Source: a virus
Lineage: Duplodnaviria > Caudoviricetes
Strand: one strand, 5' to 3'
Virus record (IMG/VR): IMGVR_UViG_2513237176_000002
DNA length: 64,000 nt
The notes beneath the pieces were generated by a model that was given only the letters and a program-made list of their open reading frames with translations, ran no database searches and was not told the DNA's origin. Shown piece after piece: positions 1 to 29,225 of this stretch. Both the position numbers and the translations under genes were made by a program. Numbering within the stretch: the first letter of the stretch is position 1; the number at the start of each line of letters is the position of its first letter.

Positions 1-9
1 TCCGGCCTG

Positions 10-1656
10 GTGTTCCTAGCGAACCCGCTTATCGGCGCGGTGCTGCTGATGTCGGCGGCGATCACCACGAACATTCGTGCCACGAAGGTCGACGCCGAGT
101 ACGCGAAACGCGGTGAACTGCCCCCGACGGCCCGCCTGGTCGACGCCTGGCTGAACCGGCAGAAAGCCGCCGGGAAGGCACCGGAATCGGCGAAGGTGCG
201 CCCGTACGGGTCGCTGGCGTACGCCCGGCAGCGGTGGCTGGCGATGTGGGAAGACCTGGGGGAGAAGCACCGCGAGCAGCGCGCCGCCCACAAGAAGCAG
301 CTTGCGGAGGCGAAGAAGAACGGCACCCCGCCGCCGAGCAAGCCGTCGTTGACGGAACAACTGGGCGGTTGGAAGTGGTCGATTCCCGGTCTGACCCGCC
401 GGGACGAGCCCGGCAGTCCGCCGCCTTCCGCCGCGAGCGCTGACCCGGAGCCGGCTGTCGCCGACGGGCCGGTCAGCACCTGCGACGAATGCGGCGTCCA
501 GCTGCCCGACGGTGGCTGGAAACACCCGCCCGGCTCGACCTGCCCGAAAGCCGCAAAACCGTCTGGCTCCTCCGACAGCAACACTGCCGCTCCGGCCGCG
601 CCGGAGGATCCGCTGCTGCGGTTCCTGTCGGATGCGCAGGAAGCGGCACGCCGCAACCCGATGCCCTTCGACCGGTGCCCGCGCTGCGGCACGACTGCCA
701 CGATCACCCCGTCGGGCTGGTGCGAAAAGTGCACCATGCAGGTCCCGCACGGCATGTGCGAGCACTGCCAGGGCGTGGTCCGCCTCGACGGCACAGTGTG
801 GCGGCACGGCGCCCACTGGCCGTGCCGGCACACCCGTCCCGCGGCCGGCGACACCATTGCCTGCACCAACTGCCGCACCCGGATCCCGGTGCACCCGGCG
901 ATCGCTGACATGGGGGCGTCAGTGCGATGCCAGCACTGTGGCGCCCAGGTCGCCGCCCGCCCACCCAGGCCCGCCTCTGCCCTGCAGCGCTGTCCTCGGT
1001 GCAGCAAATGCGACGGCCCGACCGTCCCGTCGATGAACCAGCTGCGCGGCGGCTTCTGCCCGCGCTGCGACACCACCGATCTGCCGGCCGGCAGTGAACG
1101 TCACGGCAAATGCGACCGCTGTGGGCTGCCCGGCCGGCTTGTCGTCGCCCGCAAACGCAGCACGGAACTGCTCCACGACGCCAACGGGTCAACGATTTGC
1201 CCCTACGAGACGCCGCAGCTACGCGAACTGCGCCGCACCGATCCGGGCACGGCCCGCATCTACGACGAGATCGTCGCCAAGCACCTTCGCAACACCCCGG
1301 CCGTCGACACGCAGCAGACGGCCAAGACGCCCGTACCAGCCCGAGAAGAGGGAGCATCCATGCCCGAGCATTCCGGTGAAGTCACCGGCATCCCGTCCGC
1401 CGTCCACTACCTGCAGCAGATGGCCGCCGCGCACCGGCAGCACGCCGACAACGAGGCGATGATCGCCACCCTCGCGGGTTTCCACGTCGGTGCCACCGAC
1501 CTGGCGCTGGTGCAGCAGGCCATTGCCGCCAGCAACAACGCGGCGGACCTGTACGCCGACGCCGCCACGACGATCGACGACGGTAACGCCGCGGTTCGGC
1601 AGGGCTACGCGTCCGCGCCGGACGCCGCCGACAAGCACGCCCAGATGGCGGAGTGA
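10..1656 (+). CDS. Membrane-anchored multi-zinc-ribbon protein with a C-terminal ~98-aa helical domain (5' end probably outside window)
   Basis: Frame is open from position 1. Hydrophobic N-terminal segment, at least 9 CxxC motifs, C-terminus paralogous to the next ORF. Internal RBS GAGGGAG and ATG at 1360. Confidence 0.75.
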   Translation: MFLANPLIGAVLLMSAAITTNIRATKVDAEYAKRGELPPTARLVDAWLNRQKAAGKAPESAKVRPYGSLAYARQRWLAMWEDLGEKHREQRAAHKKQLAEAKKNGTPPPSKPSLTEQLGGWKWSIPGLTRRDEPGSPPPSAASADPEPAVADGPVSTCDECGVQLPDGGWKHPPGSTCPKAAKPSGSSDSNTAAPAAPEDPLLRFLSDAQEAARRNPMPFDRCPRCGTTATITPSGWCEKCTMQVPHGMCEHCQGVVRLDGTVWRHGAHWPCRHTRPAAGDTIACTNCRTRIPVHPAIADMGASVRCQHCGAQVAARPPRPASALQRCPRCSKCDGPTVPSMNQLRGGFCPRCDTTDLPAGSERHGKCDRCGLPGRLVVARKRSTELLHDANGSTICPYETPQLRELRRTDPGTARIYDEIVAKHLRNTPAVDTQQTAKTPVPAREEGASMPEHSGEVTGIPSAVHYLQQMAAAHRQHADNEAMIATLAGFHVGATDLALVQQAIAASNNAADLYADAATTIDDGNAAVRQGYASAPDAADKHAQMAE

Positions 1657-2000
1657 ACGCCGTGACCGAGGAGAACACCGTGACCGTTCAGCAGTCCGCT
1701 GCGGGCGCCCGGCCCGCCAGTGAGATCACCGGGATCCGCTCTGCGGTGACCCGCATGGAGCAGATCGCCGCGCAGCATCAGACGCTCGGCTCTGGCGAAG
1801 GGTTCATCGGTTCCCTGAGCCGCATGGAGGTCGGCGACGACCACCAGCAGAAGGTCCGGGACGCGCAGGAAGCGTCCGGTGCCGCCGGCGCCGCCTGGGC
1901 GGAGGCGGCGGCACAGATTGCCGCGCACAACCTGCCCCTGCACGAGGCGTACCTGAACAACCCGAACGCGGCGAACAAGCACGCCAACACCAACGAGTAA
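1653..2000 (+). CDS. Small helical transfer-region protein (TraA-like or WXG100-sized)
   Basis: GTGA overlap with the upstream gene. EITGIRSAV...AANKHA matches EVTGIPSAV...AADKHA of the upstream ORF. Confidence 0.75.
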   Translation: MNAVTEENTVTVQQSAAGARPASEITGIRSAVTRMEQIAAQHQTLGSGEGFIGSLSRMEVGDDHQQKVRDAQEASGAAGAAWAEAAAQIAAHNLPLHEAYLNNPNAANKHANTNE

Positions 2001-2007
2001 CCAGGTT

Positions 2008-2032
2008 GGCCCCGCCCACCATGGGCGGGGCC
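2008..2032 (+). terminator. GC-rich hairpin (attenuator or stabiliser) before the translocase gene
   Basis: GGCCCCGCCCA-cca-TGGGCGGGGCC, 11-bp perfect stem. Confidence 0.55.
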
Positions 2033-2058
2033 CCGAGATCTGAGGAACGGAGGCAGCG

Positions 2059-4149
2059 ATGCCGACCCAGCAGAAACCGCAGCAGCCGGCCCGGCAGGCT
2101 GCCCCGCTCACCACCCGCGAGAAGATCGAACGTGCCCGGCTGCACGCGCAGACGGCACGCCGCCACGCGCAGACCGCGCACAGGTACACGGCCGGGGTGC
2201 AGAAGCAGGTCGCCCCGTTTGCCGGCATGGGCCTGCTCGTGCTCGCCGCGACGGCCCTGCACGCGGCGAAGGACGCCACCGCCGCCGACGCGGAGATCCT
2301 CGGCGGCACGGCCGCCGCCTGTGTGGTCATCGCCGTGGTCGCCGCACACCAGATGCGCCGGCGCCTCGACGACCGCAAGAGCCTGCACCGCGGCCTGGCG
2401 TTCGTCACCACCTGCGGGGTGTGGCTGATCACTACCACCGCCATCGGCGTGTCCTGGAACGCGGTCGGGTTGCTCGCCGCCATTGGCACCGCTCTTTCCC
2501 TGCACTACCTGCGCAAGGTGCGGATTCCCAACCGCGGCCCGGTGATGCCTGCCCCGCTGCCGGACCCGCTGAAGCCCGGCGTCAACCGGTACGTGGCCCG
2601 CTGGGACGAATACATCGGTTGCCCCGGCGGACAACTGCCCGGCTCGAAATTGGAGTCGCCGGAGCAGGTGAAAGCCGGGTGGCGGTTCGCGCTGCGGCTG
2701 GTCCCCGGCAAGCAGTCCATCGCCGCGCTCATGTCGGCGATGGTGCTGATCCGCGGCGGCCTCGGCCTGACCGTCGAGCAGGACGTCATCGCCGAACGCC
2801 ACCCTGTTCTTGAGGAACCCGCCGTCCAGCTGACCGTGGTCACGAAGCCGCAGGTCCGCGACGACCAGGAATGGCCGGGCCCGCAGACGTTCCGGGACGG
2901 CTACGTCGACATGGGCCCGTTCATCGACGGTGAGGGCCACGCCCGGTGGAAGGTGTACACCAAGGACCGCATGGTCGGCGGTTACATCCAGGGCGGTGCC
3001 GGCGCCGGTAAGTCCCGCCTCATCGAGTCGATCGTGATGCCTATCGCCGACTCGCAGACCCATCCGACGGTGGTGTGGTACGGCGACGGGCAGGGTGGTT
3101 CGTCGTCGCCGACACTGATGCGCTGCGCCGATTTCTCGGCACGCACCCACGAGCAGATCAAGCAGATGTTTGCGTGCGCCATGTTGATCGTCGAGCTGCG
3201 CCAGGACGAAAACAGCGTGGAGGACGACCCGGACGAGGACGGCGAGTACGACGACACGATCGGGTTCGAACCCACCGCTGACCGACCTGGACTGCTACTC
3301 ATCCTGGATGAGTGCCACAAACCCATGTCGAAGATCGAGAACGCTGAAGACTGGGTGGTCATCCAGTACATGGCGATGACCGTGGCCCGCGAAGGACAGA
3401 AGGTTGGTGTCCAAGCGATCCTCGCGTCCCAGGAGTCCACGCTCGGCGCGTTCGGTGGGGCCGGCAACAACGCGGAGATGCTGCGTTCCAACCTGCTCAT
3501 GGGCAACGGTGTGATGATGCGGTCGAAGGACGCGAACGCCCGCCAGGTGTTCAAGGTCGACGACGATCCGTCGCAGTTCCCGGTGATGCCCGGCTACGCC
3601 CTGCTCATCGACCCAGAGGAAGGTGCCCGCACCGCCCCGTTCCGGGCCTACTTCCTCACCGACCGGCTCCGCAAAGAATGGCCGTCGAAGATCCGATGGC
3701 GGTCGCTGCCCGACGGCGACGCCAATACCGCCGGGATGGCCTATCTGATGCGGCACCAGCTCGCGGAGATGGCGAAGGAGGAAACCCGCCGCCGGATCAA
3801 AGAGCGCCGGGAAGGCCGCGGCATGACCAACCCCCTCGACCGGATCTTCGCGGCGGCGAAGGGTGGCGACGGCGCCGAACAGGTCACGCCGATCGAGGCG
3901 GAGCAGGTGGCGTCATTCCCGGTATGGAACCCGGTCACCGAGCAGGTCCAGGCGCGGCAGATGCATGACAGTCACCGCAAGGTGCTGGACGCGCTGAAGG
4001 TTGGCATCTGCTCGCCGAAGCCGATCGCGGAAGCCACCGGCATTGGGCAGCGGCAGGTCCACAACCTGCTGGACGAGTTGATGGACGAGTTCGGCCGGGT
4101 GGAACGTGACGGGCACGGCAAGTACCGGCTGGTGTCCACCGATGCGTGA
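2059..4149 (+). CDS. traB: TraB-like FtsK/SpoIIIE conjugative DNA translocase
   Basis: About 4 N-terminal TM helices, Walker A GGAGAGKS, Walker B LLILDECH, AREGQKVGV/ASQ motifs, C-terminal wHTH (SPKPIAEATGIGQRQVHNLL). RBS GGAGG. Confidence 0.85.
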   Translation: MPTQQKPQQPARQAAPLTTREKIERARLHAQTARRHAQTAHRYTAGVQKQVAPFAGMGLLVLAATALHAAKDATAADAEILGGTAAACVVIAVVAAHQMRRRLDDRKSLHRGLAFVTTCGVWLITTTAIGVSWNAVGLLAAIGTALSLHYLRKVRIPNRGPVMPAPLPDPLKPGVNRYVARWDEYIGCPGGQLPGSKLESPEQVKAGWRFALRLVPGKQSIAALMSAMVLIRGGLGLTVEQDVIAERHPVLEEPAVQLTVVTKPQVRDDQEWPGPQTFRDGYVDMGPFIDGEGHARWKVYTKDRMVGGYIQGGAGAGKSRLIESIVMPIADSQTHPTVVWYGDGQGGSSSPTLMRCADFSARTHEQIKQMFACAMLIVELRQDENSVEDDPDEDGEYDDTIGFEPTADRPGLLLILDECHKPMSKIENAEDWVVIQYMAMTVAREGQKVGVQAILASQESTLGAFGGAGNNAEMLRSNLLMGNGVMMRSKDANARQVFKVDDDPSQFPVMPGYALLIDPEEGARTAPFRAYFLTDRLRKEWPSKIRWRSLPDGDANTAGMAYLMRHQLAEMAKEETRRRIKERREGRGMTNPLDRIFAAAKGGDGAEQVTPIEAEQVASFPVWNPVTEQVQARQMHDSHRKVLDALKVGICSPKPIAEATGIGQRQVHNLLDELMDEFGRVERDGHGKYRLVSTDA

Positions 4150-4150
4150 G

Positions 4151-4402
4151 CTAGTCCTTGATCTCGCGGGCCAAGTAGACGATCCCGGACCGTTCGGGTT
4201 CCTCGGTGGAGATCTCGTACTGGTACACGTCGACAAGCATGAGGATGCGGCAGTTCCGTTTCTCGAAGAAGCCCACCTTGCGATCAATGAACTTGTCCCA
4301 CACCTCGACTCGCACACCTGGCCGCGGTTCGAACGGCAGCTTGATGCTGTCGAGCAGCACCTTCTGGTGGTTGTCGGCGTCGATGAACTTCACCGTGACC
4401 AT
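4151..4402 (-). CDS. Hypothetical protein (inserted opposite to the operon)
   Basis: 83-aa ORF with protein-like composition filling the gap between traB and the hydrolase. Confidence 0.55.
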   Translation of the reverse strand: MVTVKFIDADNHQKVLLDSIKLPFEPRPGVRVEVWDKFIDRKVGFFEKRNCRILMLVDVYQYEISTEEPERSGIVYLAREIKD

Positions 4403-4458
4403 GCGCGCAGTGTAAGCACACTTGCACGCTGCGGCGAACCTGAAGGGGTGAGCGCGCA

Positions 4459-5274
4459 GTGATGGGGAAGTCGCATGCTCTGTCCGGCGCCGTCGGTTGG
4501 CTCGCCGGCAGCGCCGCGCTGACCGTAGCCGGGGTGTCCCTCGACCCGGCCACCGTGCTGTTCGGTGCCGCGATCTCCACCGGGTTCGCCCTCGCGCCGG
4601 ACGTTGACCATCCGCAGTCCACGATCGCGCACACCCTCGGCTGGGCCACCCGCGGTCTCGCCACCGGAGTCAGCCGCAGCGCCGCCGCCCTGCGCACCGC
4701 GTCCTGCGCGCACTGCTCCACCGTCCCCGACCGGGGCGGGCACCGGGCTGTCACGCACACTGCTGCCGGTGCCGCGTTCGCCGGCTTGGTCGCCGCGAAC
4801 CTGTGCCTGTGGGTCGGCCGGGGTGCCGCCCTGTGGGTCATCGCGATCGCCGTGTGGCTGGCCGCCCACTCCGCGCTGTCGTCGAGGACGCGGGCGCGGA
4901 TCGGTGACATGATCCTGCCCGGCCGGTTCCGGCGTCTCGGCAAAGGAGCCCACCGCCTCGCCGCCGCTGTCGGGGCGGTGATGGTGGCCGGGCTGGTCGC
5001 CGCGATGGCGAACAGCGCGCTTCCCGCTGACGGCCTGTGGTGGATCGGCCTCGCCGTGTTCTGGGGCTGGCTCGCCCATATCCTCGGCGACGGCCTCACG
5101 TTCTCGGCAGTCCCGCTGTGGTGGCCGATCCCGATCCGGGGCTGCCGGTGGACGAACGTCGGCACCCCGAGGTGGATGCGATTCCGCACCGGCTCCCGCA
5201 CCGAAACCGGTGTGGTGTGGCTGATGCTGCTCATCGGTGCCGGCTCGATCGCACTGCTCGGGAGCGCCTGGTGA
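4459..5274 (+). CDS. Membrane-bound metal-dependent hydrolase (YdjM-like)
   Basis: GKSHA, PDVDHP, HRAVTH and HILGDGLT motifs; multiple TM helices. Confidence 0.85.
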   Translation: MMGKSHALSGAVGWLAGSAALTVAGVSLDPATVLFGAAISTGFALAPDVDHPQSTIAHTLGWATRGLATGVSRSAAALRTASCAHCSTVPDRGGHRAVTHTAAGAAFAGLVAANLCLWVGRGAALWVIAIAVWLAAHSALSSRTRARIGDMILPGRFRRLGKGAHRLAAAVGAVMVAGLVAAMANSALPADGLWWIGLAVFWGWLAHILGDGLTFSAVPLWWPIPIRGCRWTNVGTPRWMRFRTGSRTETGVVWLMLLIGAGSIALLGSAW

Positions 5275-5558
5275 CCCGGACGCCCGATGACCATCCGGCC
5301 TGGTGCCTACGTGACGAGGTCGACGCGATCCTGCCCCGGCACCGTTCGGCGATTGTGCGGGTCGGCAGTGCCCGGCCCGGTGTGCTGTCCGATCGGGTTC
5401 AGGTCACCGTCCGGTTGACCGCGACCGCTCACGGCCCGGCCTGGGTGTCCGTGAACTGCGCCCACATGACCGGGGTGACCGTGGATATCAGCCTCGCCGA
5501 TGCGGCGGCGCTGAGGGACGGACTGACTCGGCTTCTCCAGGCCGCCGAGCACAAGTAG
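5271..5558 (+). CDS. Hypothetical protein (HPAWC motif)
   Basis: GTGA overlap; HPAWC...HRS pattern of small actinobacterial element proteins. Confidence 0.6.
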   Translation: MTRTPDDHPAWCLRDEVDAILPRHRSAIVRVGSARPGVLSDRVQVTVRLTATAHGPAWVSVNCAHMTGVTVDISLADAAALRDGLTRLLQAAEHK

Positions 5559-5587
5559 CTGTATGACTGATCGGTGAGGGCGGTCAG

Positions 5588-5944
5588 ATGAAAACCCTTT
5601 TCAATGTCATGTTTCGTCATGGGAGGTCTGGCCGCAGCATCACCCGCTATATCAGTCCAGGTGAGTTGCCGGAAGCGGGTGAGCGAGTCGAACTGAAGGA
5701 CTCGGCAAATGACCCCTGTGTGATCGCTGGGGTGGTGGCGGCTCGCCATTGGTTCGTCAATATCGGCGTTGATAACACGGCGGAAGTTGTGGTGCTGGTT
5801 GACGTCGATATTGACGAACGCAAAGAGAGCCCCACCTCGTGGCCGCCTAGTAAGGCGGTGACACGAGGTGGGGCTCTTGTGCGTCGGGTGGCGGCAAATG
5901 TGACTTCGCCAGGGCATGCCACCCGACACGATCTTGGAGAGTAG
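5588..5944 (+). CDS. Hypothetical protein
   Basis: Lower-GC ORF; its 3' part runs through the terminator hairpin. Confidence 0.4.
   Translation: MKTLFNVMFRHGRSGRSITRYISPGELPEAGERVELKDSANDPCVIAGVVAARHWFVNIGVDNTAEVVVLVDVDIDERKESPTSWPPSKAVTRGGALVRRVAANVTSPGHATRHDLGE
5826..5877. terminator. Long hairpin between convergent units
   Basis: AGAGCCCCACCTCGTG...CACGAGGTGGGGCTCT 16-bp arms plus an inner stem. Confidence 0.75.
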
Positions 5945-5954
5945 GACAGGCGCG

Positions 5955-6317
5955 CTACCTGACGGTGGCGCGGCGGTCCTTCACGCCGGAGTTGATCGCG
6001 GCGCGTTGCACGGCGGTGTCGCGGAGCAAGCCGAAGTAGACCGCGACGGCGATGCCGAAGTTCACGGCGATGCCGTAGCCGACCTGCCACGCGTCGAACG
6101 ACTCCCCGGTCTGGGTGGCGCCGAGCGCGGCCTCGAGGAACGCCTTCACCGCGGACAACGCCAGGAGGACGAGGCCTTTGGTGAACGCCGACCAGGACGA
6201 CTTCATGAGCAGGCCGGCGAGCAGCGGCAGGATCACCGTCAGCGCGAGGGAAAGCAGCCCGGCGGGGGAGGCCTCGAACAGGTAGGTGGGCAGGGTGGGG
6301 AAGACGATCGAGTCCAT
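5955..6317 (-). CDS. Holin-like membrane protein
   Basis: 120 aa, 3 TM helices, basic C-terminus, RBS AGGAG. Confidence 0.6.
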   Translation of the reverse strand: MDSIVFPTLPTYLFEASPAGLLSLALTVILPLLAGLLMKSSWSAFTKGLVLLALSAVKAFLEAALGATQTGESFDAWQVGYGIAVNFGIAVAVYFGLLRDTAVQRAAINSGVKDRRATVR

Positions 6318-6684: not shown

Positions 6685-6834
6685 GATAATCAAGGGGCAC
6701 AAAAGGCGAGCCCGGACGCGGAGCTACCAACTCCGGCCGGGCTCTTGATCGCCGCTAGGAGGCGACCCACGATGCACCCTATTCTGCCATGCCCTGAGAA
6801 CGTCTGTGCGATCAACGGGCAGGTGTTCGCATGA
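6685..6834 (+). promoter_or_regulatory. Structured 5' leader and 20-aa leader peptide (6772-6834) coupled to the initiator gene
   Basis: GATAAT, then hairpin GAGCCCGG..CGGAG-CTACCAA-CTCCG..CCGGGCTC, then an SD-containing hairpin TCGCC-GCTAGGA-GGCGA, then MHPILPCPENVCAINGQVFA* with ATGA overlap. Confidence 0.55.
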
Positions 6835-7649
6835 AGGTAATCCGCGTCATGCCCGACGAGGGATGGGTGCCGGTCGCCAATGCCGCCGCCCGAGACCACC
6901 GTCTGAGTTGGCGCGCGCGGGGCCTGCTGCTTGAACTGCTCTCGTACCCCGACGGCTGGGAGACCAGTGTTGACAAGCTGGTAGCGCAGGCACGCCGCGA
7001 AGGATCGGCCAGTGAAGGCCGACTCGCCATGCGTACCGCCATGAAAGAACTCGCCGACCTCGGATACGTCACCTACCGGCGCGGCCACGACGAGCACGGC
7101 AGGTGGACGACGGAGATGGTCGTCAGCGATGTACCCGGCAGCCCCGAAGCCTCGGACCGACGTACCAAAAACCGGAACGTCGGAATTCCGGAACCTCGGC
7201 TGCCCGGAACGTCGGAGAACCAGACGTCGGAGGATTGGTCCGTTACTAATAAGACGTACACGGACACGGTCACGAATACGGATCTTCAAAGAGGTTCCAA
7301 CGAACATTCCACGTCGCTCGCTTCGCTCGCTGCCGCCGCTGACGCGGCGACGCGAATGAACGACCAGAAGCCGACGTTGGACGAGACGTATGCACTCGTC
7401 GACCGCATGCCGAAAGAGGTGCTGGCGAAAGCTTTGCTCGACCTCGAACGCCGCCGGGCAAGGATCTACCGAGAGGCGCGACGAGGAGCGATCGGCCAGT
7501 TCAAGCGGGAAAGTCCCGGAGTCTTCCGGGAAGGAAACTCATATGCGCGAGTCGACAACCTCAGCTACAAGTACGCCGTGCAGCACTACTTCCCGGACCT
7601 GCCGACGTGGATGGAGAAACCGCTCGGCTTGTTGCCGGTGAGGGGTTGA
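6831..7649 (+). CDS. Second replication-initiator-like wHTH protein
   Basis: W-x-P-V-x-N...DHRLSWRARGLLLELLSYPDGW N-terminus typical of phage initiators; internal repeats and AT-rich patch. Confidence 0.7.
   Translation: MKVIRVMPDEGWVPVANAAARDHRLSWRARGLLLELLSYPDGWETSVDKLVAQARREGSASEGRLAMRTAMKELADLGYVTYRRGHDEHGRWTTEMVVSDVPGSPEASDRRTKNRNVGIPEPRLPGTSENQTSEDWSVTNKTYTDTVTNTDLQRGSNEHSTSLASLAAAADAATRMNDQKPTLDETYALVDRMPKEVLAKALLDLERRRARIYREARRGAIGQFKRESPGVFREGNSYARVDNLSYKYAVQHYFPDLPTWMEKPLGLLPVRG
7172..7252. repeat. Iteron-like direct repeats (16-bp period) and AT-rich patch; putative origin
   Basis: CCGGAACGTCGGA (7172), CCGGAACCTCGGC (7188), CCGGAACGTCGGA (7204), CCAGACGTCGGA (7220), then GTTACTAATAA. 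Confidence 0.6.
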
Positions 7650-8715: not shown

Positions 8716-8916
8716 TCAGCTGCCGTCTTGCCCCGGCCGCCGTTCTTTGATCCACCTTTCGACGTCTGCAGCCAGCCACACTTTGCCCTGGCCGAGCTCG
8801 GCGACGGGCGCGGGGAACTTCGGGTGGCTGGTGAGGGCGTAGACGCGCTGCCGGCTGATGTTGCCGAGTCGGGCGCGGATCTCGTGGGCGCCCATCAGCT
8901 TGAGCCTAGATGTCAT
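8716..8916 (-). CDS. AlpA-family HTH regulator
   Basis: GAHEIRARLGNISRQRVYAL...FPAPV...GKVW..DVERW. Confidence 0.8.
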   Translation of the reverse strand: MTSRLKLMGAHEIRARLGNISRQRVYALTSHPKFPAPVAELGQGKVWLAADVERWIKERRPGQDGS

Positions 8917-9100
8917 GAGACCAGCATAGGCATCAGTCAAGAGACATGGCGGTTGCCGATCCGAACCCACGGCTGGCGCCCATCCCCGAAGGCACATTCT
9001 CGCGGGAAGCTGGGTTGACGGACCGCATCTCTTCCAACCGAGCTGCTGACCAAACACACTAGCTGGTGTGGCAGGCCTGCCGAGCGGGGAAGGTGCAGAG

Positions 9101-9325
9101 ATGAGCGACGTCTTCCGACTGTGCGTTGAAACCACTGACGGAGCCTCAACAAACATTGACAAGGTGCCAGCAACAGCCGTGATGGAAACGATGAATCGCT
9201 ACGTCAACCGGCTGGGAGACGGTTTGTCGTTCATCGCCGCAGCTGGTCCCGTGTCATGGACCTGGGACGAGATTCACGCCATCCGCCTGGTGCGGGGCAG
9301 CTACACCGTCGAGGAGTATCCGTAA
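9101..9325 (+). CDS. Hypothetical protein divergent from the AlpA gene
   Basis: RBS GGAAGG, 74-aa ORF. Confidence 0.5.
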   Translation: MSDVFRLCVETTDGASTNIDKVPATAVMETMNRYVNRLGDGLSFIAAAGPVSWTWDEIHAIRLVRGSYTVEEYP

Positions 9326-12145: not shown

Positions 12146-14992
12146 CTACAGGGCCACATATGCCGGGTCGGCGAGCGATACTCGCGCCCCGCCCACATGG
12201 GGTTTGTTGACATTGTTTTTGGACCTGACCGCACCGGTGACGGTTTGCAGGTAGGGTCCAGTGCCGGTCGGGGCGGACATGCCGGCTGCGGGGACACCGA
12301 TGACTTCACCGTCGATGTCCAGGTCGTAGCCGCCCGCGGTCGCCCATGTCTCCATCCGGCTCACCGTTTTGATGACGAACGTGGTGGCCGAGGCGTTCAG
12401 TGCCGCGTTGAGGGTGCTCGACAGTGAGTCCAGCAGCGAACCAGGGTCGTCGACGACCGCGACCCGCCACGGCTCAGCTGGATCCGTGTCCACCGAGGCA
12501 GCCCACGACCGTGGCGCGAGGGTCTCGGATCCGCCGACGATAACCTGGTCGATGGTGTCGACCCCGGCGATCGTCGGCTGGTTGAGGCGCTGAATGCGGG
12601 AACCGGGCCGGCACAGCAGCCAGTCGTCGATCAGGTCGGGGTTGGCGGCCAGGTCAATGCTGGCGGCCGGATAGGTGGCGCCTTGCGCGTCCGCGGTCAG
12701 GTGGACGCGCCAGCGGGCGTGATCGCCGAGCTGGGTGTCCGACAGCAGATCCAGCGTGGCCTTGCCGGGGATGGTGCCGCGCCGCTGCCGGTAAGTGGTG
12801 TCCGCTCCCCAGGTCGCCGACGACCCACCGGTCCGCTCAACCGTCCAGTAGTTCGGGGCCCGCGAGTTGAGGACTGGCACCAGCACTTGGGCGGGGTCGG
12901 TGCCCGCGGACCGGGCGTACGTGCCGAGGTCGATCACCATTGTCGGGTCCGGGTTGTAGCGGGCCGCCCGCGGCACCATCGTGTACCCGAACGCGTCTTC
13001 GTGCAGGATGGCCCCGGACTCGGCCTCTGCCGCCGCCTTGACCAAGTCCACGAAAGTGCCAGGCTGCTGAGTGTTGAGCTGGGTGATGCCGTCTGCCGGG
13101 GGAGTGGCGGTCACCTCGAACGGCACCCGTTCCTCAGCGGACAGCCGCCCAGCCCGCTTGTGGGCGGGTTCGCCCCACCAGCCGCGGTCCGCACGGTACT
13201 GGCCGTACTCGTCGACCTTGAACGGCAGCCCCGAACTGTCCGTGTTGCGCACCAGCAGGTGACCCATGATGAACTTCAGGCCCGCCTGGTTGGTGGAGGC
13301 GGTGACGTTCGCCCGGTCCGGGTTCAAGGAGATCGGCCCGAGTACGGAGCCGAGGGTGCCGGCAACCGTGCCGCTGCCCCACGTGTTCGCATTGAGCAGG
13401 ATGTCGACGTCGATGTTGCCGCCGTCTTGGACCATGACGACGTCGATGAACATCCAGCCGACGAAGTTGTGGTTCGCGACGGCGACGGTGGTGTTGGTGC
13501 CGGCCTGCGTGTTGTAGGCGCGGACGATGTGGCCGGGCGTGTTGGTGGAGATCAACGCCCACCGGTCCCAGGTGCCGGTCGTTGACCATTCCAGCAGCCG
13601 GATTTCGCTGGTTGCTGGTAGGACGGCTTGGGTGAACTGGTTGACGGAGACGGTGACCGTCCACGCATTAGAGGTGACGAGGTTGGTGACCGACCCGGCC
13701 AGGCGGGCACCGGCTGCCAGGGACACCAGGTTTTTGGTGCCGTAGTTCGCCAGTTCGGCGTCGTCGGGAACACCGGTGCTGGCATCGAACACGACGGGGC
13801 CGGTGGGCAGCAGCGGTGGTTGCCCTTCCAGGGCGGACGCGGCCTGCGTGGACCGTTCAGCGTCTTCGAGCGGCCAGTAGGCAACCGGCTCCACCGCGCC
13901 TTTCTGCAGGGCGCGGCGCAGCGGTGACCACTCGGGTGCGTCCTTGCCTTCCAACCGGGTGCCGACCCCGCCCAGTTCGATCTGGGCGACGCTGTGCGCC
14001 GAGCCGTCAGCAAGCGGCAGGAAGGTGGTGCGGACGTCGGCGATGTAGCCTTCGAACCGCGAGTATTTGGGCTGCTCCACCCGGAAGTTGTCGACGGTGA
14101 ACACGTACGGCAGCGCGTTCGTGGTTGACGCGAAAATCCAGGCCTGGAAGCCCAGGTAGTCCTGCCGCCCGGTCTGCACGGTCACCGTGTAGTCGATCGG
14201 CCAGTCGGAAGGTTCGGTGCCGGATGCCGCCCAGGCGCGCATCCGTACCCGTTCGCCGACGACGAGGAGCCGCAGCCGGATCATCTGCCCGGCCGCGTAG
14301 GTGAGGCCCGGCTGGCTCGCGGCAGCCAGATCCGACGTGTTGTGCCGCAGCCGTAGCCCGATGGTGCCGCCGGTGCCGAAGTCGAGGGCCGCCCACAGGT
14401 TGGTGTTCGCGGCGGTGCCCCGGAAGTAGATGCCGGCGCCGACCGCGTTGCCGACCGGAATGGCGGGAACCGCGACGTCGATGGTGGCGTCGATGTCGCG
14501 GTGCGGCACCACCGCCCGCGCCCGGCGGATCACGTCTTTCGCGGTGAACGTGATCTGCCCTTGGGTGCCGTTGGTGCTCATCGCGGCGGGGCTCGAATAC
14601 GACCACATTGTCGGCCCGACGTCGGCGGGTCCGATTGAGTTGGTTTGCGGGGTGCCGGTGAACGTGTGCAACACGATCGGACCCGGCTTGGTGCGCACTT
14701 CCAGTTTGAACGGGGTGCCGGCGTCCACGTACGGCCACCACTGCGAGCCGGGATGCAGCGCGGTCAGCTGGCCGTCGTCGTTGAGCAGGTGCACGGTTGC
14801 GGACGCCGACCGGCTGCTGGACCCGCCGACGATCACACCCCACTGGATGGTGATCGGTGTCGGGAGCAGCCGGTCGGACAGGTCCGTCCACGTCCACGTG
14901 TCCGGGTCGGCGGTCAGGTCGGCACCGAACGCCGCGCTGGCGGTTATTTCCAGGTCGGCGCTGCCGGGGAACTCGCCGGTCGGGGATGTCAC
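12146..14992 (-). CDS. Large tail-tip protein with lectin/LamG-like inserts
   Basis: WTDLSDR N-terminus, PVAYWPLED motif, position after the TMP. Confidence 0.8.
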   Translation of the reverse strand: MTSPTGEFPGSADLEITASAAFGADLTADPDTWTWTDLSDRLLPTPITIQWGVIVGGSSSRSASATVHLLNDDGQLTALHPGSQWWPYVDAGTPFKLEVRTKPGPIVLHTFTGTPQTNSIGPADVGPTMWSYSSPAAMSTNGTQGQITFTAKDVIRRARAVVPHRDIDATIDVAVPAIPVGNAVGAGIYFRGTAANTNLWAALDFGTGGTIGLRLRHNTSDLAAASQPGLTYAAGQMIRLRLLVVGERVRMRAWAASGTEPSDWPIDYTVTVQTGRQDYLGFQAWIFASTTNALPYVFTVDNFRVEQPKYSRFEGYIADVRTTFLPLADGSAHSVAQIELGGVGTRLEGKDAPEWSPLRRALQKGAVEPVAYWPLEDAERSTQAASALEGQPPLLPTGPVVFDASTGVPDDAELANYGTKNLVSLAAGARLAGSVTNLVTSNAWTVTVSVNQFTQAVLPATSEIRLLEWSTTGTWDRWALISTNTPGHIVRAYNTQAGTNTTVAVANHNFVGWMFIDVVMVQDGGNIDVDILLNANTWGSGTVAGTLGSVLGPISLNPDRANVTASTNQAGLKFIMGHLLVRNTDSSGLPFKVDEYGQYRADRGWWGEPAHKRAGRLSAEERVPFEVTATPPADGITQLNTQQPGTFVDLVKAAAEAESGAILHEDAFGYTMVPRAARYNPDPTMVIDLGTYARSAGTDPAQVLVPVLNSRAPNYWTVERTGGSSATWGADTTYRQRRGTIPGKATLDLLSDTQLGDHARWRVHLTADAQGATYPAASIDLAANPDLIDDWLLCRPGSRIQRLNQPTIAGVDTIDQVIVGGSETLAPRSWAASVDTDPAEPWRVAVVDDPGSLLDSLSSTLNAALNASATTFVIKTVSRMETWATAGGYDLDIDGEVIGVPAAGMSAPTGTGPYLQTVTGAVRSKNNVNKPHVGGARVSLADPAYVAL

Positions 14993-15822: not shown

Positions 15823-18800
15823 TTAGCTACCGAACGCCAACTGCGGGTCACCCCGATACGAGAACTTGATCAGGTTGCGGAAGGCGTCCAGGACTTGATC
15901 CCCGGTGGCCCCCGACACCCAGCGGGCCTCGAGAGTGCGGGAATCCGCCACCGCGAGGCTGCGGGTGATCGCCGCATCCGCGTCGAACCCGAGCCCCATC
16001 GCCGCGTCATCAATCTGCGGCAACGCGGACGCGGCCAGACGTTCGGCTGCCGCCTGCACCAGGCCGGCGTCGGCGTCGATTCCCAGGGCAAGGCCCTCCG
16101 GTACACCGCGGCCCAGCTTCGCTGCCTCTTTCGACGGCGAGTTGATGCCGAGTGCCGCTTGGATGGCGTTGGTGACATAGTTCTGCGCGAAGTTCGCCAC
16201 CCGGTTCCACAGCCACGACGACAGTTCGGCGATGCCGTTCCACAGGCCGCGGACCACGTTGCGGCCGGCGGACACTAGCCACGAGCTGGCGTTCGACACC
16301 GCCCCGGTGACCTGGCTGCGGAGCTGTCCGGCCCTCGAGCGCAGGTCGCCGAGCCGGTTGGAGATCCCCGACATGAGCCCGCCGACCGCGTTGCGGCCGG
16401 TGCCGGCCAGCCACGACCCGGCGCCCGCGACAGCGTTCGTGACGGTCGTCTTCAGCTGCTCGGCTCGGCTGCGCAGCGACCCCAGCAGATTGGAGATCCC
16501 GTTCAGGAAGCCGCGCACCACGTCGGCGCCGATGCTGGCGAACACGGTGCTCGGGGACTTGATCCCGAACAGGTTCTTGACCGCGCTGATAACGCCGTTG
16601 AACGCCGCCTTCACCACGGCCTTGACGATCGGGCCTTGCGCGACGATCCCGGCGAGGAAACCGGTGACGATCCCCGCCGCGATGTCCGCGCCGAGGCTTT
16701 CGGACTCGTCGGACGAGAACGCGGACCGGATCTGCTCATACAGGCCAGTGATCTTGTTGCCGAGTTCGATGCCCTCCGAGATCGCCGCCTGCACCTTGCC
16801 GATGAAGTCTTGGATCTTCTGCTGGTTCTGCGGGTTCGCCAGGTAGTCGGCGACCTTCTGCAAGCCGATCCGGAACTTCTCCAGCGGGGACTCGCCGGGG
16901 TTTGTCGCCTGCGACCCGGTGATGATCTCGAAGATGGAGCCGATGATCGAAGCGACCGTGTTACCGATCGCGAAGATCTCCCGCAAAGCCTGGCTAGCCC
17001 GCTCGAAGAAGTCCTCAAGGCCGCCGGACCGTTCGCCCTGCTCCACCCAATCCGAGAACCGGGTAACGATCTCGGCCAGGCCCTCGCCGAGCTCCTTCAG
17101 GAACGGCGCCGACGCCTTCGCTAGCCGCCCGAACGCCGGAACCAGCTTGTTCGCGACCGCGTCGAGCAGCGGCTCCAGGCCTTGCCGGAAACCCTCCGCC
17201 GCGGCCTGGATGTTGTCCATGAACTCGGTCGTGGACAGCTGCGAGCCGAGATCCTTGAAGAAGCCGTTGAACGTGTCCGCGTACGCGCCGAGCGTCGTCT
17301 TCAGCCGCGGGATCCAGGCGTTCCCGAGGTTCGTGACCGTGCGGTCCAAGCCCTGGAACAGGCGCTGCTGCACGTCCAGCCGCAGATCGTCGAACGCGGG
17401 CTTCAACGCCTTGATCGCGTTGACGAACTTCTGCGCGGCCGGTGCCAGCTTGGTGACCTCCTTCGCCACCCCGCCGCCGCCCGAGGCGACCTTCTGCTGC
17501 GACTGGGCAAGAGAATCCTGCGCCGACTTCAGGCCATCGGTTGCGGACTTGACGCCGTCGAGGGCCGCTTTGACCCCGTCCTGCGCCGACGCGAGGGAGT
17601 CCTGGGCGTCGATGACCCCGAGCTGGGCGTCCCGGACACCCTTGAGAGCTTCTTCCTGATCTCGGTAGGCGTCCTGAACCTCGTCGGACCCCTCCACGCC
17701 TTTCCGGTTCGCTTCGTCGGTGGCCTCACCGAGATCCCCAGCAGTGTCCTTCGCCTCTTCGAGCGCCAACTGGGCGCGCTGATAGGCGAGCTCAGCGCGC
17801 TGAATGTCCGGCAGATTGCCGGTCACCCTGGCGGCCTCGAGCTCCCGCAGGGCGTCAGTAACGCCGAGCGCGGCCTCCTTCTCCGACAGTTGCGCGCCCC
17901 GCAACGCCCGGTTGAGGTCTTCGATGTTCTCCGCCGCGTCCTTACGCGCCTGGTTGATGGCCTTCTGCGCGTCGGTGACCCGCTTCTGCGCCTCCACCAC
18001 CCGCAGCTGCGCCTCGGCATAGTTGCGTTCCGCCGCAGCCAGCGACCGCTCGGAGGCCTCGACCTGCCGATTTGCGGCGGCGATACCCCGCCGGGCGGCC
18101 TCCACCTGCCGGGCTGCTGCGGCGATCTGCCGGGCCTGGTTGACCGCACCCCCGCCGCCTCCACCGCCCCCACCGGTGTCCTTGAACGCCTCCCCGATGC
18201 CCTTGAACCCCAGCCCGAGAGTGCCGATCACCGCACCGACACCGGCCAGCGCACCGGGAATCGCCGCAGCAGCACCCGCCACCGCCGTGATAGCCGGCAC
18301 CGCAGCCACAGCCGCGGCGGACAGCGCGGCCATCGCCGCGACAGCGCCAGCGACCAGCCCGACGATGATTCCGACGGGCCCGGACGCTGATGACAGCGCG
18401 CCGGACAGGCTGCTGCCGAGCTGCACGGCCTGACCGGCACCCCGCGAGATCGCGTCACCGAGGCCGTTGAACGCGCCCTTCAGCGCAGACACGCCGGGGA
18501 TGGCGCCGGACAACATCCGGCCAATACCCGACAGCGCCCGCGACGGCTTGTCCGTGTCAACGTCAACTTCGACGTCCACGTGAACATCGGCGCCCTGACC
18601 GGCGCGCGCCGCCGCGGCACGGACCTGCTCCGGTAGCCGGGACGTGTCCGCATCCACCGGCACGCTCGCCTTGACGCCCTGCACCGCCGAGGACACGGCG
18701 GCCCGTAGCCTCTGCCCAAGTCCCTGGACGCCGTTTGTGTCGGCAGTGACCGGGACCTGTACCGGCCCGGACTGGGTGATGGCGTCCCGGATCGCGCGGG

Positions 18801-28664: not shown

Positions 28665-29225
28665 TCAGGATTTCTGCTGCTCGGCCAGCTTGATCAGGTC
28701 GGCCTTGTCCACGGACTGAACGTCCTCGTACCGGCTCCCGCGAGAGACCAGGTACTCGACCCACACCGCCTGGGACGCCCGGCCATCCGGGGCCTTGCCG
28801 CCGAGCTCGGCCAGCTTCGCCTTGGCGGCGGCCCGCTTGGCGTCCACCTCGCTGGCGTTCGACGCTTCCCGCGGCGACTCTGCGGCCTTGTCGATGCCAC
28901 TCTCGGCGCGAACCGCAGAAGCCACCTCGGCCGACACGTCAGAGGCAGGCGTGCCCGGCTCCTGGGCCGGCTTGCCCTGAAGGCTCTCCGTCGTCACCGA
29001 GTCCAGGCCGCGGGCCGGGTCCTGCGGCACGGACGCGTTCGGGGCGATCGGCTCCTCACCCGGCTCCGCCACAAACCCGCCCTCGAGCAGGAACTCCAGC
29101 CGCTTCGGGTCCACGCCGTCGGGCAGGAACGCACCCTTGTACAGCAGGTGCGTGGCGGTGACTCCGCTGTGATCGGTGACCGGCACGTGCGCGCACTCGG
29201 CGATCACCTGGTAGCGGGCGCCCAT
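28665..29225 (-). CDS. Post-capsid protein with a C-terminal small helical (HeH/SAP-like) domain
   Basis: APDGRASQAVWVEYL...KADLI; coupled to the capsid gene. Confidence 0.65.
   Translation of the reverse strand: MGARYQVIAECAHVPVTDHSGVTATHLLYKGAFLPDGVDPKRLEFLLEGGFVAEPGEEPIAPNASVPQDPARGLDSVTTESLQGKPAQEPGTPASDVSAEVASAVRAESGIDKAAESPREASNASEVDAKRAAAKAKLAELGGKAPDGRASQAVWVEYLVSRGSRYEDVQSVDKADLIKLAEQQKS

What the first reader, a model, noticed from the sequence alone, without database searches (positions are those of the whole stretch)
1..5558. TraB-type conjugation module adjoining a complete-looking tailed prophage: candidate conjugative phage
Seen: a translocase with N-terminal TM helices, one FtsK ATPase domain and a C-terminal wHTH, in an operon with small helical proteins and a membrane hydrolase. 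The operon converges on the end of the phage late region, with a holin-like gene right at the shared terminator and no visible integrase, att site or host gene between them. Established: this domain architecture is that of TraB, which moves double-stranded plasmids and AICEs between actinomycete hyphae without a relaxase or T4SS. Inference: the phage genome has two transmission routes, virions and hypha-to-hypha or intramycelial transfer of the excised circle, which would avoid receptor-based resistance.
Basis: partly seen in the sequence, partly recalled or inferred. Interest (0 to 1): 0.88.

Follow-up and report, generated by a model that had tools for sequence, protein, structure and literature searches.

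The report
Prophage carrying a plasmid-type TraB transfer operon
A 105-kb integrated tailed phage of a mycelial actinomycete carries, as a conserved part of its own genome, the kind of DNA-pumping operon that actinomycete plasmids use to move between hyphae, so it may spread without virions, as one Streptomyces plasmid-phage (pZL12) is reported to do.

Summary
Window 2059-4149 encodes a 696-aa protein with N-terminal TM helices, one FtsK-like ATPase and a C-terminal wHTH. Single-sequence Pfam, NCBIfam and PHROG scans miss it. A family profile aligns end to end with pJV1 TraB (E 9e-15) and pIJ101 Tra (E 6.5e-12).

It is not a neighbouring AICE. Exact 37-bp repeats lie at window -41208 and 64129. 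There is one tyrosine integrase, and relatives have an uninterrupted target site. Together these bound a single 105.4-kb prophage with traB inside it.

The linkage recurs: 17 IMG/VR viral contigs carry the gene, including 112.6-kb and 56.5-kb contigs with terminal repeats, rated complete, that also carry terL. So does a collinear 62-kb second contig of a two-contig genome. A plasmid-like 124-kb second contig and a 93-kb Streptomyces phage-plasmid carry a homologous operon.

New here: a ~90-aa helical-hairpin domain sits immediately upstream of traB in 23 of 24 relative loci.

Transfer itself is untested. No clt was established. pZL12 is a published precedent, so this is a new variant (integrative, Micromonosporaceae, distinct TraB subfamily) and not a new kind. 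The scan noted the same stretch in overlapping windows of this genome.

The parts
1..1656 (+). 3' part of a 651-aa gene (starts at window -299 = L003:4701). It has an N-terminal TM helix, several zinc-ribbon-like Cys clusters and a C-terminal ~90-aa helical-hairpin domain (1372-1653).
   Evidence: Weak Pfam DZR/Zn_ribbon matches; TM; hairpin domain conserved upstream of traB in 23 of 24 relative loci.
1653..2000 (+). Free-standing 115-aa paralogue of the helical-hairpin domain (P0096).
   Evidence: 37% identity to 1360-1656, E 2e-10. AF2 pLDDT 86.5, a helical hairpin. No significant PDB fold match; ESAT-6/EsxB appear only among weak hits.
2059..4149 (+). TraB/Tra-type translocase, 696 aa: TM helices, FtsK-like ATPase, C-terminal wHTH (P0001).
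   Evidence: hhalign to pJV1 TraB 98.4%, E 8.8e-15 over 592 columns, and to pIJ101 Tra 97.5%, E 6.5e-12 over 414 columns.
4151..4402 (-). Conserved 83-aa gene on the opposite strand directly after traB; function unknown.
   Evidence: Homologues at the same position in L005 and L007.
4459..5274 (+). YdjM-family membrane-bound metal-dependent hydrolase, 271 aa, 4 TM.
   Evidence: Pfam PF04307 2.8e-18 and PHROG 20744 5.9e-27; TM; present in L007 and L009.
5275..5954 (.). Convergent gap between the transfer operon and the phage lysis end, with inverted repeats (5740-5831, 5826-5877, 5883-5927).
   Evidence: No canonical terminator. No att copy.
5955..6317 (-). Holin-like gene, 120 aa, 3 TM.
   Evidence: PHROG 8269 holin 4.6e-10; TM; homologues next to traB in L005, L007, G116:C2 and L017.
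6831..7649 (+). Replication-initiator / DnaD-like DNA-binding protein.
   Evidence: PHROG 1456, 4707 and 428, E 1e-15 to 1e-8.
8716..9162 (-). Excisionase-like HTH protein.
   Evidence: PHROG 2790 and 66, about 1e-5.
12146..14992 (-). 948-aa tail-end protein, often found 4-14 kb from traB in relatives.
   Evidence: PHROG 5313 1.4e-99; tblastn hits in G116:C2, G229:C3, G178:C10, L007, L010, L018, L019 and L022.
15823..18915 (-). Tape measure protein.
   Evidence: PHROG 4197 3.9e-79.
20299..20865 (-). Major tail protein.
   Evidence: PHROG 117 5.2e-22.
29225..30166 (-). Major capsid protein.
   Evidence: PHROG 1650 4.3e-69.
30639..32516 (-). Head maturation protease with an RNA-ligase-like insert.
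   Evidence: PHROG 3894 2.6e-72 and PHROG 2659 2e-31.
32978..35071 (-). Portal protein.
   Evidence: PHROG 113 1.5e-45.
35088..36377 (-). Terminase large subunit. Relatives are annotated 'PBSX family'.
   Evidence: PHROG 2 2.1e-42; 55-57% identity to TerL of Streptomyces plasmids of 21-93 kb, four of them 88-93 kb.
41662..43092 (-). DnaB-like replicative helicase.
   Evidence: PHROG 19 6.4e-99.
60199..61581 (-). C5 cytosine DNA methylase.
   Evidence: Pfam PF00145 7.3e-32.
62033..62734 (-). XRE-type HTH protein near the right end of the prophage. attR lies just outside the window at 64129-64165 = L004:2129-2165. attL and the integrase lie at -41208 and -41065..-39713 = L001:3792-3828 and L001:3935-5287.
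   Evidence: Pfam HTH_31 4.2e-14; att repeats; empty-site alignment.

Best explanation
The stretch is the distal part of a plasmid-type dsDNA transfer operon that is an integral, conserved part of one 105.4-kb temperate siphovirus prophage.

Shown:
- The prophage is bounded by a 37-bp direct repeat and has a single tyrosine integrase.
- It is inserted in the first codons of an ABC-transporter gene that is uninterrupted in relatives.
- The operon runs from window -2580 to 5274. It encodes a DUF2637-like membrane protein with a coiled coil and an HTH-like tail, small membrane proteins, a membrane/zinc-ribbon protein ending in a helical-hairpin domain, a free copy of that hairpin, the TraB-type translocase and a YdjM-type membrane hydrolase.
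- The translocase is homologous over its whole length to the Tra/TraB proteins of plasmids pJV1 and pIJ101. Published work on pSVH1 TraB (as cited in PMC3583192) describes that family as hexameric, membrane-anchored pumps that recognise repeated 8-bp motifs through the wHTH and move unprocessed double-stranded plasmid DNA between hyphae.

Inferred mechanism: after excision or during replication, the circular phage genome is bound by the wHTH at a cis site that is still unidentified. It is then pumped through the membrane-anchored ATPase ring into a neighbouring hypha or hyphal compartment. The other membrane proteins play the role of Spd-type spreading factors. This would give the phage a virion-independent route, as reported for plasmid-phage pZL12.

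Odds: about 0.9 that traB is a bona fide TraB homologue belonging to the phage genome; about 0.5 that its function is transfer or spreading of the phage DNA.
For: Architecture and homology:
- TM, ATPase and wHTH.
- The profile hits EccC, HerA and FtsK ATPases.
- The fold best matches the FtsK-like conjugative coupling protein TcpA and the FtsK motor.
- The hhalign match is collinear from the TM region to the wHTH with pJV1 TraB (E 8.8e-15, 592 columns) and pIJ101 Tra (E 6.5e-12, 414 columns). The genome's own EccC-type proteins match only about 210-240 ATPase columns.
- Catalytic residues are invariant over 28 relatives of 29-77% identity.

One unit:
- The 37-bp repeat occurs exactly twice in the genome.
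- The integrase sits beside attL. It is the only tyrosine recombinase in the element, and the genome has no serine recombinase.
- Two relatives have the empty site.

Recurrent linkage to virion genes:
- 17 IMG/VR viral contigs carry the gene. TerL is present in all 6 that are rated at least 90% complete, including DTR contigs of 112,563 and 56,457 bp.
- The same synteny is seen on 104-kb and 112-kb metagenome contigs.
- G116:C2 (62 kb) is collinear from portal to traB.
- TerL lies 20-33 kb from traB in G229 and G322.

Plasmid connection:
- G384:C2 (124 kb, Cas genes and a toxin, no virion genes found among its 10 largest ORFs) carries the same operon.
- The phage-plasmid NZ_CP107843.1 has a DUF2637 gene, a 612-aa gene, a 126-aa gene and then a TraB-like gene (hmmsearch 1.9e-20), together with ParA, TerL and coat genes.

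Precedent: the pZL12 tra locus (PMC3583192; record GQ919031).
Against: - No transfer, expression or packaging data exist.
- No clt-like repeat array was found at the 3' end of traB or downstream. The only local candidate is four copies of CTTACCGC at -1839 to -1551, spaced in multiples of 3, which may simply encode a peptide repeat.
- The 8-mer arrays in relatives do not covary cleanly with the wHTH recognition helix.
- The accessory proteins show no sequence similarity to the pIJ101 or pJV1 Spd/TraA proteins.
- pZL12's own FtsK-like protein is only a distant match (88%, E 3e-6, ATPase domain only).
- No cultured phage in the phage collection has a homologue.
- The universal helical-hairpin partner is not a feature described for plasmid TraB systems.
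- The left 38 kb of the prophage is not conserved in the 112-kb relative.
Confidence: 0.5

Rival explanations
1. The translocase serves the phage inside the cell rather than moving it between cells. It might partition replicating or excised phage DNA into hyphal compartments or spores, in the manner of FtsK/SffA. It might instead act as a superinfection-exclusion or defence device at the membrane.
For: The FtsK-like motor plus a DNA-binding wHTH fits DNA segregation as well as transfer. There is a weak PADLOC match to mad8 (7e-4). FtsK-like genes of unknown role occur in other phages: Bacillus myoviruses and Streptomyces phage Gilgamesh, and Thermobifida phage P1312 ORF63 (PMC4569894). No clt was found.
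Against: The whole-length collinearity is with conjugative Tra/TraB, not with FtsK. A homologous operon sits on a plasmid-like replicon and on a phage-plasmid related to pZL12 by TerL. No established defence family matches at a meaningful score.
Confidence: 0.25
2. The ATPase and the helical-hairpin proteins form a minimal type-VII-like export pair. The FtsK/SpoIIIE-family ATPase would recognise the conserved C-terminal tail of WXG100-like hairpins and export them or their fused membrane protein.
For: A ~90-aa hairpin domain with a conserved C-terminal EAY..P(D/N)A..K tail lies immediately upstream of the ATPase gene in 23 of 24 relative loci, and close relatives also have a free paralogue. 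The family profile's best PDB sequence match is EccC (7.7e-8). ESAT-6, CFP-10 and EsxB appear among the weak fold matches (TM about 0.55-0.62).
Against: There is one ATPase domain, not three. The C-terminal wHTH and the full-length match to TraB argue for a DNA substrate. There is no WxG motif. The fold matches are not significant (E above 0.5), and helical hairpins are generic. The profile search of PDB finds no WXG100 protein.
Confidence: 0.1
3. A separate AICE or plasmid is integrated beside or within an ordinary prophage, so the linkage is accidental.
For: The module is of plasmid type and occurs on a plasmid-like replicon. An extra initiator-like gene and an excisionase-like gene lie nearby at 6.8-9.2 kb. 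The flanking arms are mosaic.
Against: There is no third att copy, even allowing 8 mismatches. The whole 105 kb holds only one recombinase. The empty site in relatives equals the outer flanks. The same traB-to-lysis/tail adjacency is seen in DTR contigs rated complete and in a 62-kb replicon. The holin gene sits between traB and the initiator block, which interleaves the modules.
Confidence: 0.05

Closest known systems
Streptomyces plasmid-phage pZL12 / phage ZL12 (GQ919031; Zhong et al. 2010, J Bacteriol 192:3747)
   Same: One replicon combines a siphovirus virion module with an FtsK-like tra gene. That gene is flanked by a large protein and by a membrane protein with an HTH-like tail (pZL12.73c-71c), and there is a GntR regulator. 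Its transfer is cited as needing a major tra gene plus two adjacent genes (PMC3583192). Our TerL is 55-56% identical to TerL of Streptomyces plasmids of 88-93 kb, a size like pZL12's 90.4 kb, one of which carries a TraB-like operon organised like ours.
   Different: pZL12 is an extrachromosomal plasmid with ParAB; ours is chromosomally integrated, with a tyrosine integrase and att sites. The host family differs (Micromonosporaceae). pZL12's Tra matches our family only weakly (88%, E 3e-6, ATPase only), and its accessory proteins are not detectably homologous. The pZL12 paper itself could not be read here.
TraB of pSVH1 and pJV1, Tra (KilA) of pIJ101: conjugative dsDNA translocases of Streptomyces plasmids
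   Same: Same size and same order of TM, FtsK-like ATPase and wHTH, with collinear profile alignment over 414-592 columns. Like pJV1 TraB, our protein falls below Pfam's FtsK_SpoIIIE threshold.
   Different: Only about 19-24% identity. No clt or TRS array was identified. The accessory genes are unrelated to spdA, spdB, kilB or traA. The gene sits upstream-coupled to a helical-hairpin domain. It resides in a phage.
Actinomycete integrative and conjugative elements (pSAM2, SLP1, pMEA300; PMC2440964)
   Same: Site-specific integration by a tyrosine integrase, an FtsK-like Tra protein, and a GntR-family gene near the integrase.
   Different: The AICEs named in that paper's abstract are 10.9-17.3 kb and sit in tRNA genes; to my knowledge AICEs carry no virion genes. 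This element is 105 kb, carries a full virion module and sits in a protein-coding gene.
TcpA of pCW3 and the FtsK motor domain (PDB 6o1w, 2iut, 6t8b)
   Same: Best structural matches to the ATPase core (E 7e-15 to 4e-14).
   Different: 13-16% identity. TcpA works with a relaxase-type Tcp system. FtsK lacks this N-terminal beta domain and uses a gamma domain.
Type VII secretion ATPase EccC/EssC with WXG100 substrates
   Same: An FtsK/SpoIIIE-family membrane ATPase encoded next to ~100-aa helical hairpins with a conserved C-terminal tail.
   Different: A single ATPase domain, a wHTH, no WxG motif, and no significant fold or sequence match of the hairpin to WXG100.

Membership tests
TraB/Tra conjugative dsDNA translocases of actinomycete plasmids | N-terminal transmembrane anchor | tested here: met
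   AF2 helices 47-153 and hydropathy peaks at 51-69, 78-96 and 113-131.
TraB/Tra conjugative dsDNA translocases of actinomycete plasmids | Single FtsK/HerA-type ATPase with intact Walker A and B motifs | tested here: met
   G312, G317, K318, D417 and E418 are invariant or nearly so. PDB profile hits to EccC, HerA and FtsK. Foldseek to TcpA and FtsK.
TraB/Tra conjugative dsDNA translocases of actinomycete plasmids | [quoted passage not shown] | tested here: met
   AF2 shows three helices plus a beta hairpin at 637-691. Profile matches to MarR/ArsR regulators. The region aligns with the wHTH of pIJ101 Tra and pJV1 TraB.
TraB/Tra conjugative dsDNA translocases of actinomycete plasmids | Whole-length homology to an experimentally defined Tra/TraB | tested here: met
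   hhalign to pJV1 TraB 98.4%, E 8.8e-15, query 49-681 against 31-676 of 678. hhalign to pIJ101 Tra 97.5%, E 6.5e-12.
TraB/Tra conjugative dsDNA translocases of actinomycete plasmids | Pfam FtsK_SpoIIIE (PF01580) above the gathering score | tested here: not met
   No hit even at E 10. This is not decisive, because bona fide pJV1 TraB also scores below the cut-off (18.3 against 24 bits).
TraB/Tra conjugative dsDNA translocases of actinomycete plasmids | A cis-acting clt with repeated ~8-bp motifs recognised by the wHTH | tested here: inconclusive
   No array at or after the 3' end of traB. Four copies of CTTACCGC lie in the first operon gene. Relatives have dense one-orientation 8-mer arrays in the same gene, some with the 8-mer in two reading frames. 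The motifs do not track the wHTH helix.
TraB/Tra conjugative dsDNA translocases of actinomycete plasmids | Hexameric pore that transfers dsDNA between hyphae | not testable with these tools
AICE | Small element made of int, rep, tra and spd genes, without virion genes, usually in a tRNA gene | tested here: not met
   105.4 kb with a full virion module. No tRNA in or beside it. The target is the 5' end of an ABC-transporter gene.
AICE | Its own att pair and integrase flanking the tra module | tested here: not met
   Only the outer att pair and one recombinase are present.
Integrated temperate tailed phage | TerL, portal, protease, major capsid, major tail, tape measure and holin in one block | tested here: met
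   An endolysin was not identified among the genes scanned.
Integrated temperate tailed phage | Integrase, att repeats, and an empty site in relatives | tested here: met
pZL12-type plasmid-phage | Virion genes and an FtsK-like tra locus on one replicon | tested here: met
pZL12-type plasmid-phage | Maintained as an extrachromosomal plasmid (ParAB) | tested here: not met
   In this assembly the element is integrated. Par genes were not specifically searched. The relative G116:C2 is assembled as a separate 62-kb contig.
Type VII secretion (EccC/EssC plus WXG100) | Multi-domain (three) ATPase and WXG100 substrates | tested here: not met
   One ATPase domain. The hairpin has no WxG motif and no significant match to WXG100.

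The most novel reading that the evidence does not exclude
Temperate phages of mycelial actinomycetes commonly own a TraB-type dsDNA pump and a dedicated helical-hairpin adaptor. With these the excised phage genome is passed directly between hyphae or compartments without virions. That would be a second, receptor-independent transmission route, encoded by integrative prophages as well as plasmid-phages. The DNA-level 8-mer arrays inside the first operon gene would be its cis site.
Probability: 0.35. Interest if true: 0.85.

Novelty: new variant of a known kind. Interest (0 to 1): 0.6.

Why it matters
If the operon works as its plasmid homologues do, these phages blur the line between virus and conjugative element. 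They would do so in a different way from the known Gram-negative phage-plasmids. A complete tailed prophage could spread by contact through a mycelium or to neighbours that lack the phage receptor. That would change how lysogeny, host range and resistance are modelled in soil actinomycetes, which are major antibiotic producers.

The work also defines a TraB subfamily that Pfam, NCBIfam and PHROGs all miss, together with an invariant partner domain. Surveys of mobile elements in Micromonosporaceae therefore likely under-call both.

[quoted passage not shown] The loci found here make the question testable in a second host family and in an integrative setting.

Tried and rejected
- Single-sequence Pfam, NCBIfam and PHROG scans of the 696-aa protein gave nothing useful. 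phmmer against PDB gave nothing.
- tblastn against the phage collection found no homologue with the query or with a distant relative. Megablast of the late region found no related phage.
- PADLOC gave only a weak mad8 match.
- The search for a clt at the 3' end of traB and downstream found no repeat array. Two strong repeat clusters elsewhere in the element are probably unrelated to TraB: AAGTTACG x8 near an AAA_25 helicase gene, and AGGGGTCTC hairpins x7 at about -5 kb.
- The covariation test between the 8-mer arrays of relatives and the wHTH recognition helix was not supportive. L018 and L019 share a motif but differ in the helix. L010 and L039 share the helix but differ in motif.
- P0094 against pJV1 TraA showed no similarity. 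The pIJ101 and pJV1 Spd proteins have no Pfam family to compare with.
- The hairpin domain against WXG100 gave no significant sequence or fold match.
- The specific TerL protein was absent from 18 of 19 other genomes that carry traB. This was revisited with the PHROG family: nearby TerL in G229 and G322 only.
- A PF10145 tape-measure search in five genomes was uninformative.
- The left-arm helicase and the integrase were not found in the 112-kb relative, so whole-genome collinearity with it is not shown.
- The genome search could not reach the metagenome records.
- The flanking NMO and ABC genes have a different relative orientation in relatives, so the empty site was shown by alignment of the ABC 5' end rather than by gene adjacency.

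Full report
**Setting.** The window is G000:C1:2174794-2238793 of an 8.77-Mb, single-contig, roughly 68% G+C actinomycete genome. Every named homologue of the key protein comes from Micromonosporaceae: Actinoplanes, Micromonospora, Plantactinospora and Catellatospora. Because spurious ORFs abound at this G+C content, I called genes by third-position G+C.

**The observation.** Window 2059-4149 (+) encodes a 696-aa protein, P0001. Pfam, NCBIfam and PHROGs give no family for it, even at E = 10 for FtsK_SpoIIIE.
- The sequence carries Walker A GGAGAGKS (311-318) and Walker B LILDE (413-418).
- An alignment of 28 homologues of 29-77% identity keeps G312, G317, K318 and E418 invariant and D417 in at least 90% of them.
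- A profile of that alignment hits the EccC FtsK/SpoIIIE ATPase (7.7e-8), HerA and FtsK, and its C-terminus hits MarR/ArsR-type winged helices.
- The AlphaFold model (pLDDT 79.5) shows membrane helices up to residue 153, a beta domain, a RecA-like core and a terminal wHTH.
- Its best fold matches are TcpA, the FtsK-like coupling protein of pCW3, and the FtsK motor (E 7e-15 to 4e-14).

The test that matters for the name 'TraB' is a direct comparison with experimentally defined proteins taken from the plasmid collection.
- The profile aligns with pJV1 TraB over 592 columns, from the TM region to the wHTH (98.4%, E 8.8e-15).
- It aligns with pIJ101 Tra over 414 columns (97.5%, E 6.5e-12).
- The genome's own EccC-type proteins match only about 210-240 ATPase columns.
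- pJV1 TraB itself scores below Pfam's FtsK cut-off, so the missing Pfam hit does not count against membership.
- Nearest clusters in the ESM Atlas are actinobacterial FtsK-plus-MarR/IclR proteins of 590-700 aa.

- There is a 115-aa helical protein at 1653-2000, paralogous to the tail of the upstream gene.
- A YdjM-family membrane hydrolase lies at 4459-5274.
- A holin-like gene at 5955-6317 converges on the operon.
- A complete-looking siphovirus module follows: TerL, portal, protease, capsid, connector, major tail and tape measure.
- The convergent gap contains hairpins but no canonical terminator.

- An exact 37-bp direct repeat, GACATGAGCATGGAGATGGCGGCGTGGAACTCGATGT, lies at window -41208 and 64129. 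It occurs nowhere else in the genome, even allowing 8 mismatches.
- A tyrosine integrase lies 143 bp inside the left copy. Host genes for an AMP-binding enzyme and a nitronate monooxygenase precede it. The right copy overlaps the start codon of an ABC-transporter gene.
- This integrase is the only PF00589 match inside the element, and the genome has no serine recombinase.
- In two congeners the orthologous ABC gene (93% and 87% identity) is uninterrupted. Its upstream region matches the left flank of attL, and its coding sequence matches the right flank of attR, with the switch exactly at the core.

The unit is therefore a single 105.4-kb prophage, and traB sits 43 kb from attL, well inside it.

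**Is the linkage accidental?** A search of IMG/VR found 17 viral contigs that encode relatives. A PHROG TerL profile is present in 10 of them and in all 6 that CheckV rates at least 90% complete. Those include a 112,563-bp contig with direct terminal repeats (TraB 66% identical) and a 56,457-bp one.
- The 112-kb and 104-kb metagenome contigs show the same local order as the window: operon, small minus-strand gene, hydrolase (YdjM-family in the 112-kb contig), holin, then lysis and tail genes.
- In isolates, 24 of 401 Micromonosporaceae genomes searched (the window's own genome included) have a homologue.
- G116:C2, the 62,067-bp second contig of a two-contig genome, is collinear with the window from portal through capsid, tail, tape measure and holin to traB and a GntR gene.
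- G229 and G322 have a TerL 20-33 kb from traB.

The module also occurs off phages.
- G384:C2 (123.8 kb) carries the operon together with type I-C Cas genes and a polymorphic toxin. No virion gene was found among its 10 largest ORFs.
- Our TerL is 55-56% identical to TerL of circular Streptomyces plasmids of 88-93 kb.
- One of these, NZ_CP107843.1, has ParA, a P22-type coat protein, a tape measure protein and an operon ordered as a DUF2637 protein, two small genes, a 612-aa protein, a 126-aa protein and a 781-aa 'type IV coupling-like' protein. That last protein is homologous to our family (hmmsearch 1.9e-20; hhalign 98.8%, E 1.2e-16). The gene order parallels ours.

**The operon.** It begins outside the window at -2580.
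- Its first product, P0095, has N-terminal membrane helices, a coiled coil and an HTH-like tail. The equivalent protein of relative L019 reaches Pfam's DUF2637 threshold.
- Small hydrophobic ORFs follow, then a 193-aa protein (P0094) that accompanies TraB in 20 of 25 loci.
- Next comes the 651-aa membrane/zinc-ribbon protein whose 3' part opens the window.

Following a lead from another first-stage note, I confirmed that the last ~95 aa of that protein and the 115-aa protein are paralogues. An HMM shows the same domain at the C-terminus of the protein encoded immediately upstream of traB in 23 of 24 relative loci. It is absent from pIJ101 and pJV1. The domain folds as a confident helical hairpin. 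It has no significant match to WXG100 or to anything else. It is thus a hallmark of this TraB subfamily, and I infer it to be an adaptor or partner of the ATPase.

**Cis site.** I found no repeat array at or after the 3' end of traB. In many relatives the first operon gene holds 5-20 copies of one 8-mer in one orientation.
- In L010, L019 and L039 the same 8-mer occurs in two reading frames of one open frame. In L010 it gives 'ADQ' and 'RTS' peptides; in L019, 'MNT' and 'DEHP'. In L008 and L017 it continues beyond the ORF. This points to selection on the DNA.
- The window's own element has only four CTTACCGC copies there, spaced in multiples of three.
- The motifs do not track the TraB recognition helix.

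The site therefore remains unidentified.

**Mechanism and rivals.** The best-supported reading is that this is a plasmid-type dsDNA transfer and spreading module owned by the phage. Function is inferred from homology to Tra/TraB and from the pZL12 precedent.
- The GQ919031 record shows a membrane protein with an HTH-like tail, a 766-aa protein and an FtsK-like protein in a row beside the head genes, plus a GntR regulator.
- pZL12's own ATPase is only distantly related to ours (88%, E 3e-6).

I give about 0.9 to 'true TraB homologue integral to the phage genome' and about 0.5 to 'mediates intercellular or intramycelial transfer of phage DNA'. The rivals are an intracellular segregation or exclusion role (0.25), a type-VII-like export pair (0.1) and an accidental neighbour (0.05).

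**Novelty.** A conjugative plasmid-phage is already described in Streptomyces, so the category is known. The following are new here:
- an integrative, att-bounded prophage version in another family;
- the recurrence of the linkage in contigs rated complete;
- a TraB subfamily that standard libraries do not detect;
- its invariant hairpin partner;
- the DNA-level 8-mer arrays.

Noticed in passing
L001:3730-3828 (attL) and L004:2040-2165 (attR; window 64040-64165, just past the window end): The phage integrates in the first ~11 codons of an ABC-transporter gene. Upstream of attR it carries its own look-alike of the host promoter region (a shared GAAA..TTGACCTC.ACC box), so the transporter gene is probably still expressed in the lysogen.
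   Followed up: partly
L001:12907-13091 (window -32093 to -31910): Eight copies of AAGTTACG, the only ones in the 105-kb element, cluster just downstream of an AAA_25 (RepA-like) helicase gene. This may be an iteron origin or a partition site.
   Followed up: no
L002:19970 to L003:141 (window -5030 to -4859): Seven copies of AGGGGTCTC/GAGACCCCT, the only ones in the element, are partly arranged as 9-bp-stem hairpins around an AT-rich patch between two minus-strand genes. They may be an operator set or a terminator/promoter region about 2.3 kb upstream of the transfer operon.
   Followed up: no
L010:3167-3467, L019:8127-8565, L008:6293-7125, L017:6070-6983, L038:15555-15759: Relatives carry dense one-orientation arrays of a lineage-specific 8-mer inside, and sometimes just beyond, the DUF2637-like first gene of the transfer operon. 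In L010, L019 and L039 the same 8-mer is read in two frames of one ORF, so the repeat seems selected as DNA.
   Followed up: partly
window 30639-32516: The head maturation protease gene carries an internal segment that matches phage RNA ligase families (PHROG 2659, residues 156-338).
   Followed up: no
L001:7601-8299; relative L005:1-3189: RNA-repair genes are present. The prophage has an RlaP-type nucleotidyltransferase. The 104-kb relative has a TROVE/Ro-like protein, a PNKP-like kinase/phosphatase and a T4 Rnl1-type ligase, which suggests a counter to anticodon-nuclease defences.
   Followed up: no
G384:C2 (L051-L057), 123,818 bp: The second contig of a two-contig congener genome carries type I-C Cas genes (Cas3, Csd1), an ALF/PT-HINT polymorphic toxin and the same TraB operon. 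No virion genes were found among its 10 largest ORFs, so it is a plasmid-borne copy of the module.
   Followed up: partly
window 22994-26092: A 1032-aa ORF between the head and tail genes has unusual codon-position G+C (0.60/0.63/0.87) and no PHROG match.
   Followed up: no
G000:C1:274994-276220 and 288655-289179: A second TerL (46% identical) with a nearby integrase indicates another prophage in the same genome. It has no TraB-like gene (one match only).
   Followed up: no
G270:C4:775000-778959, G096:C2:256760-262445: In congeners the nitronate-monooxygenase and ABC-transporter genes are convergent and 1-2.7 kb apart. In this genome they are co-directional across the prophage, so a local inversion has occurred in one lineage.
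   Followed up: no
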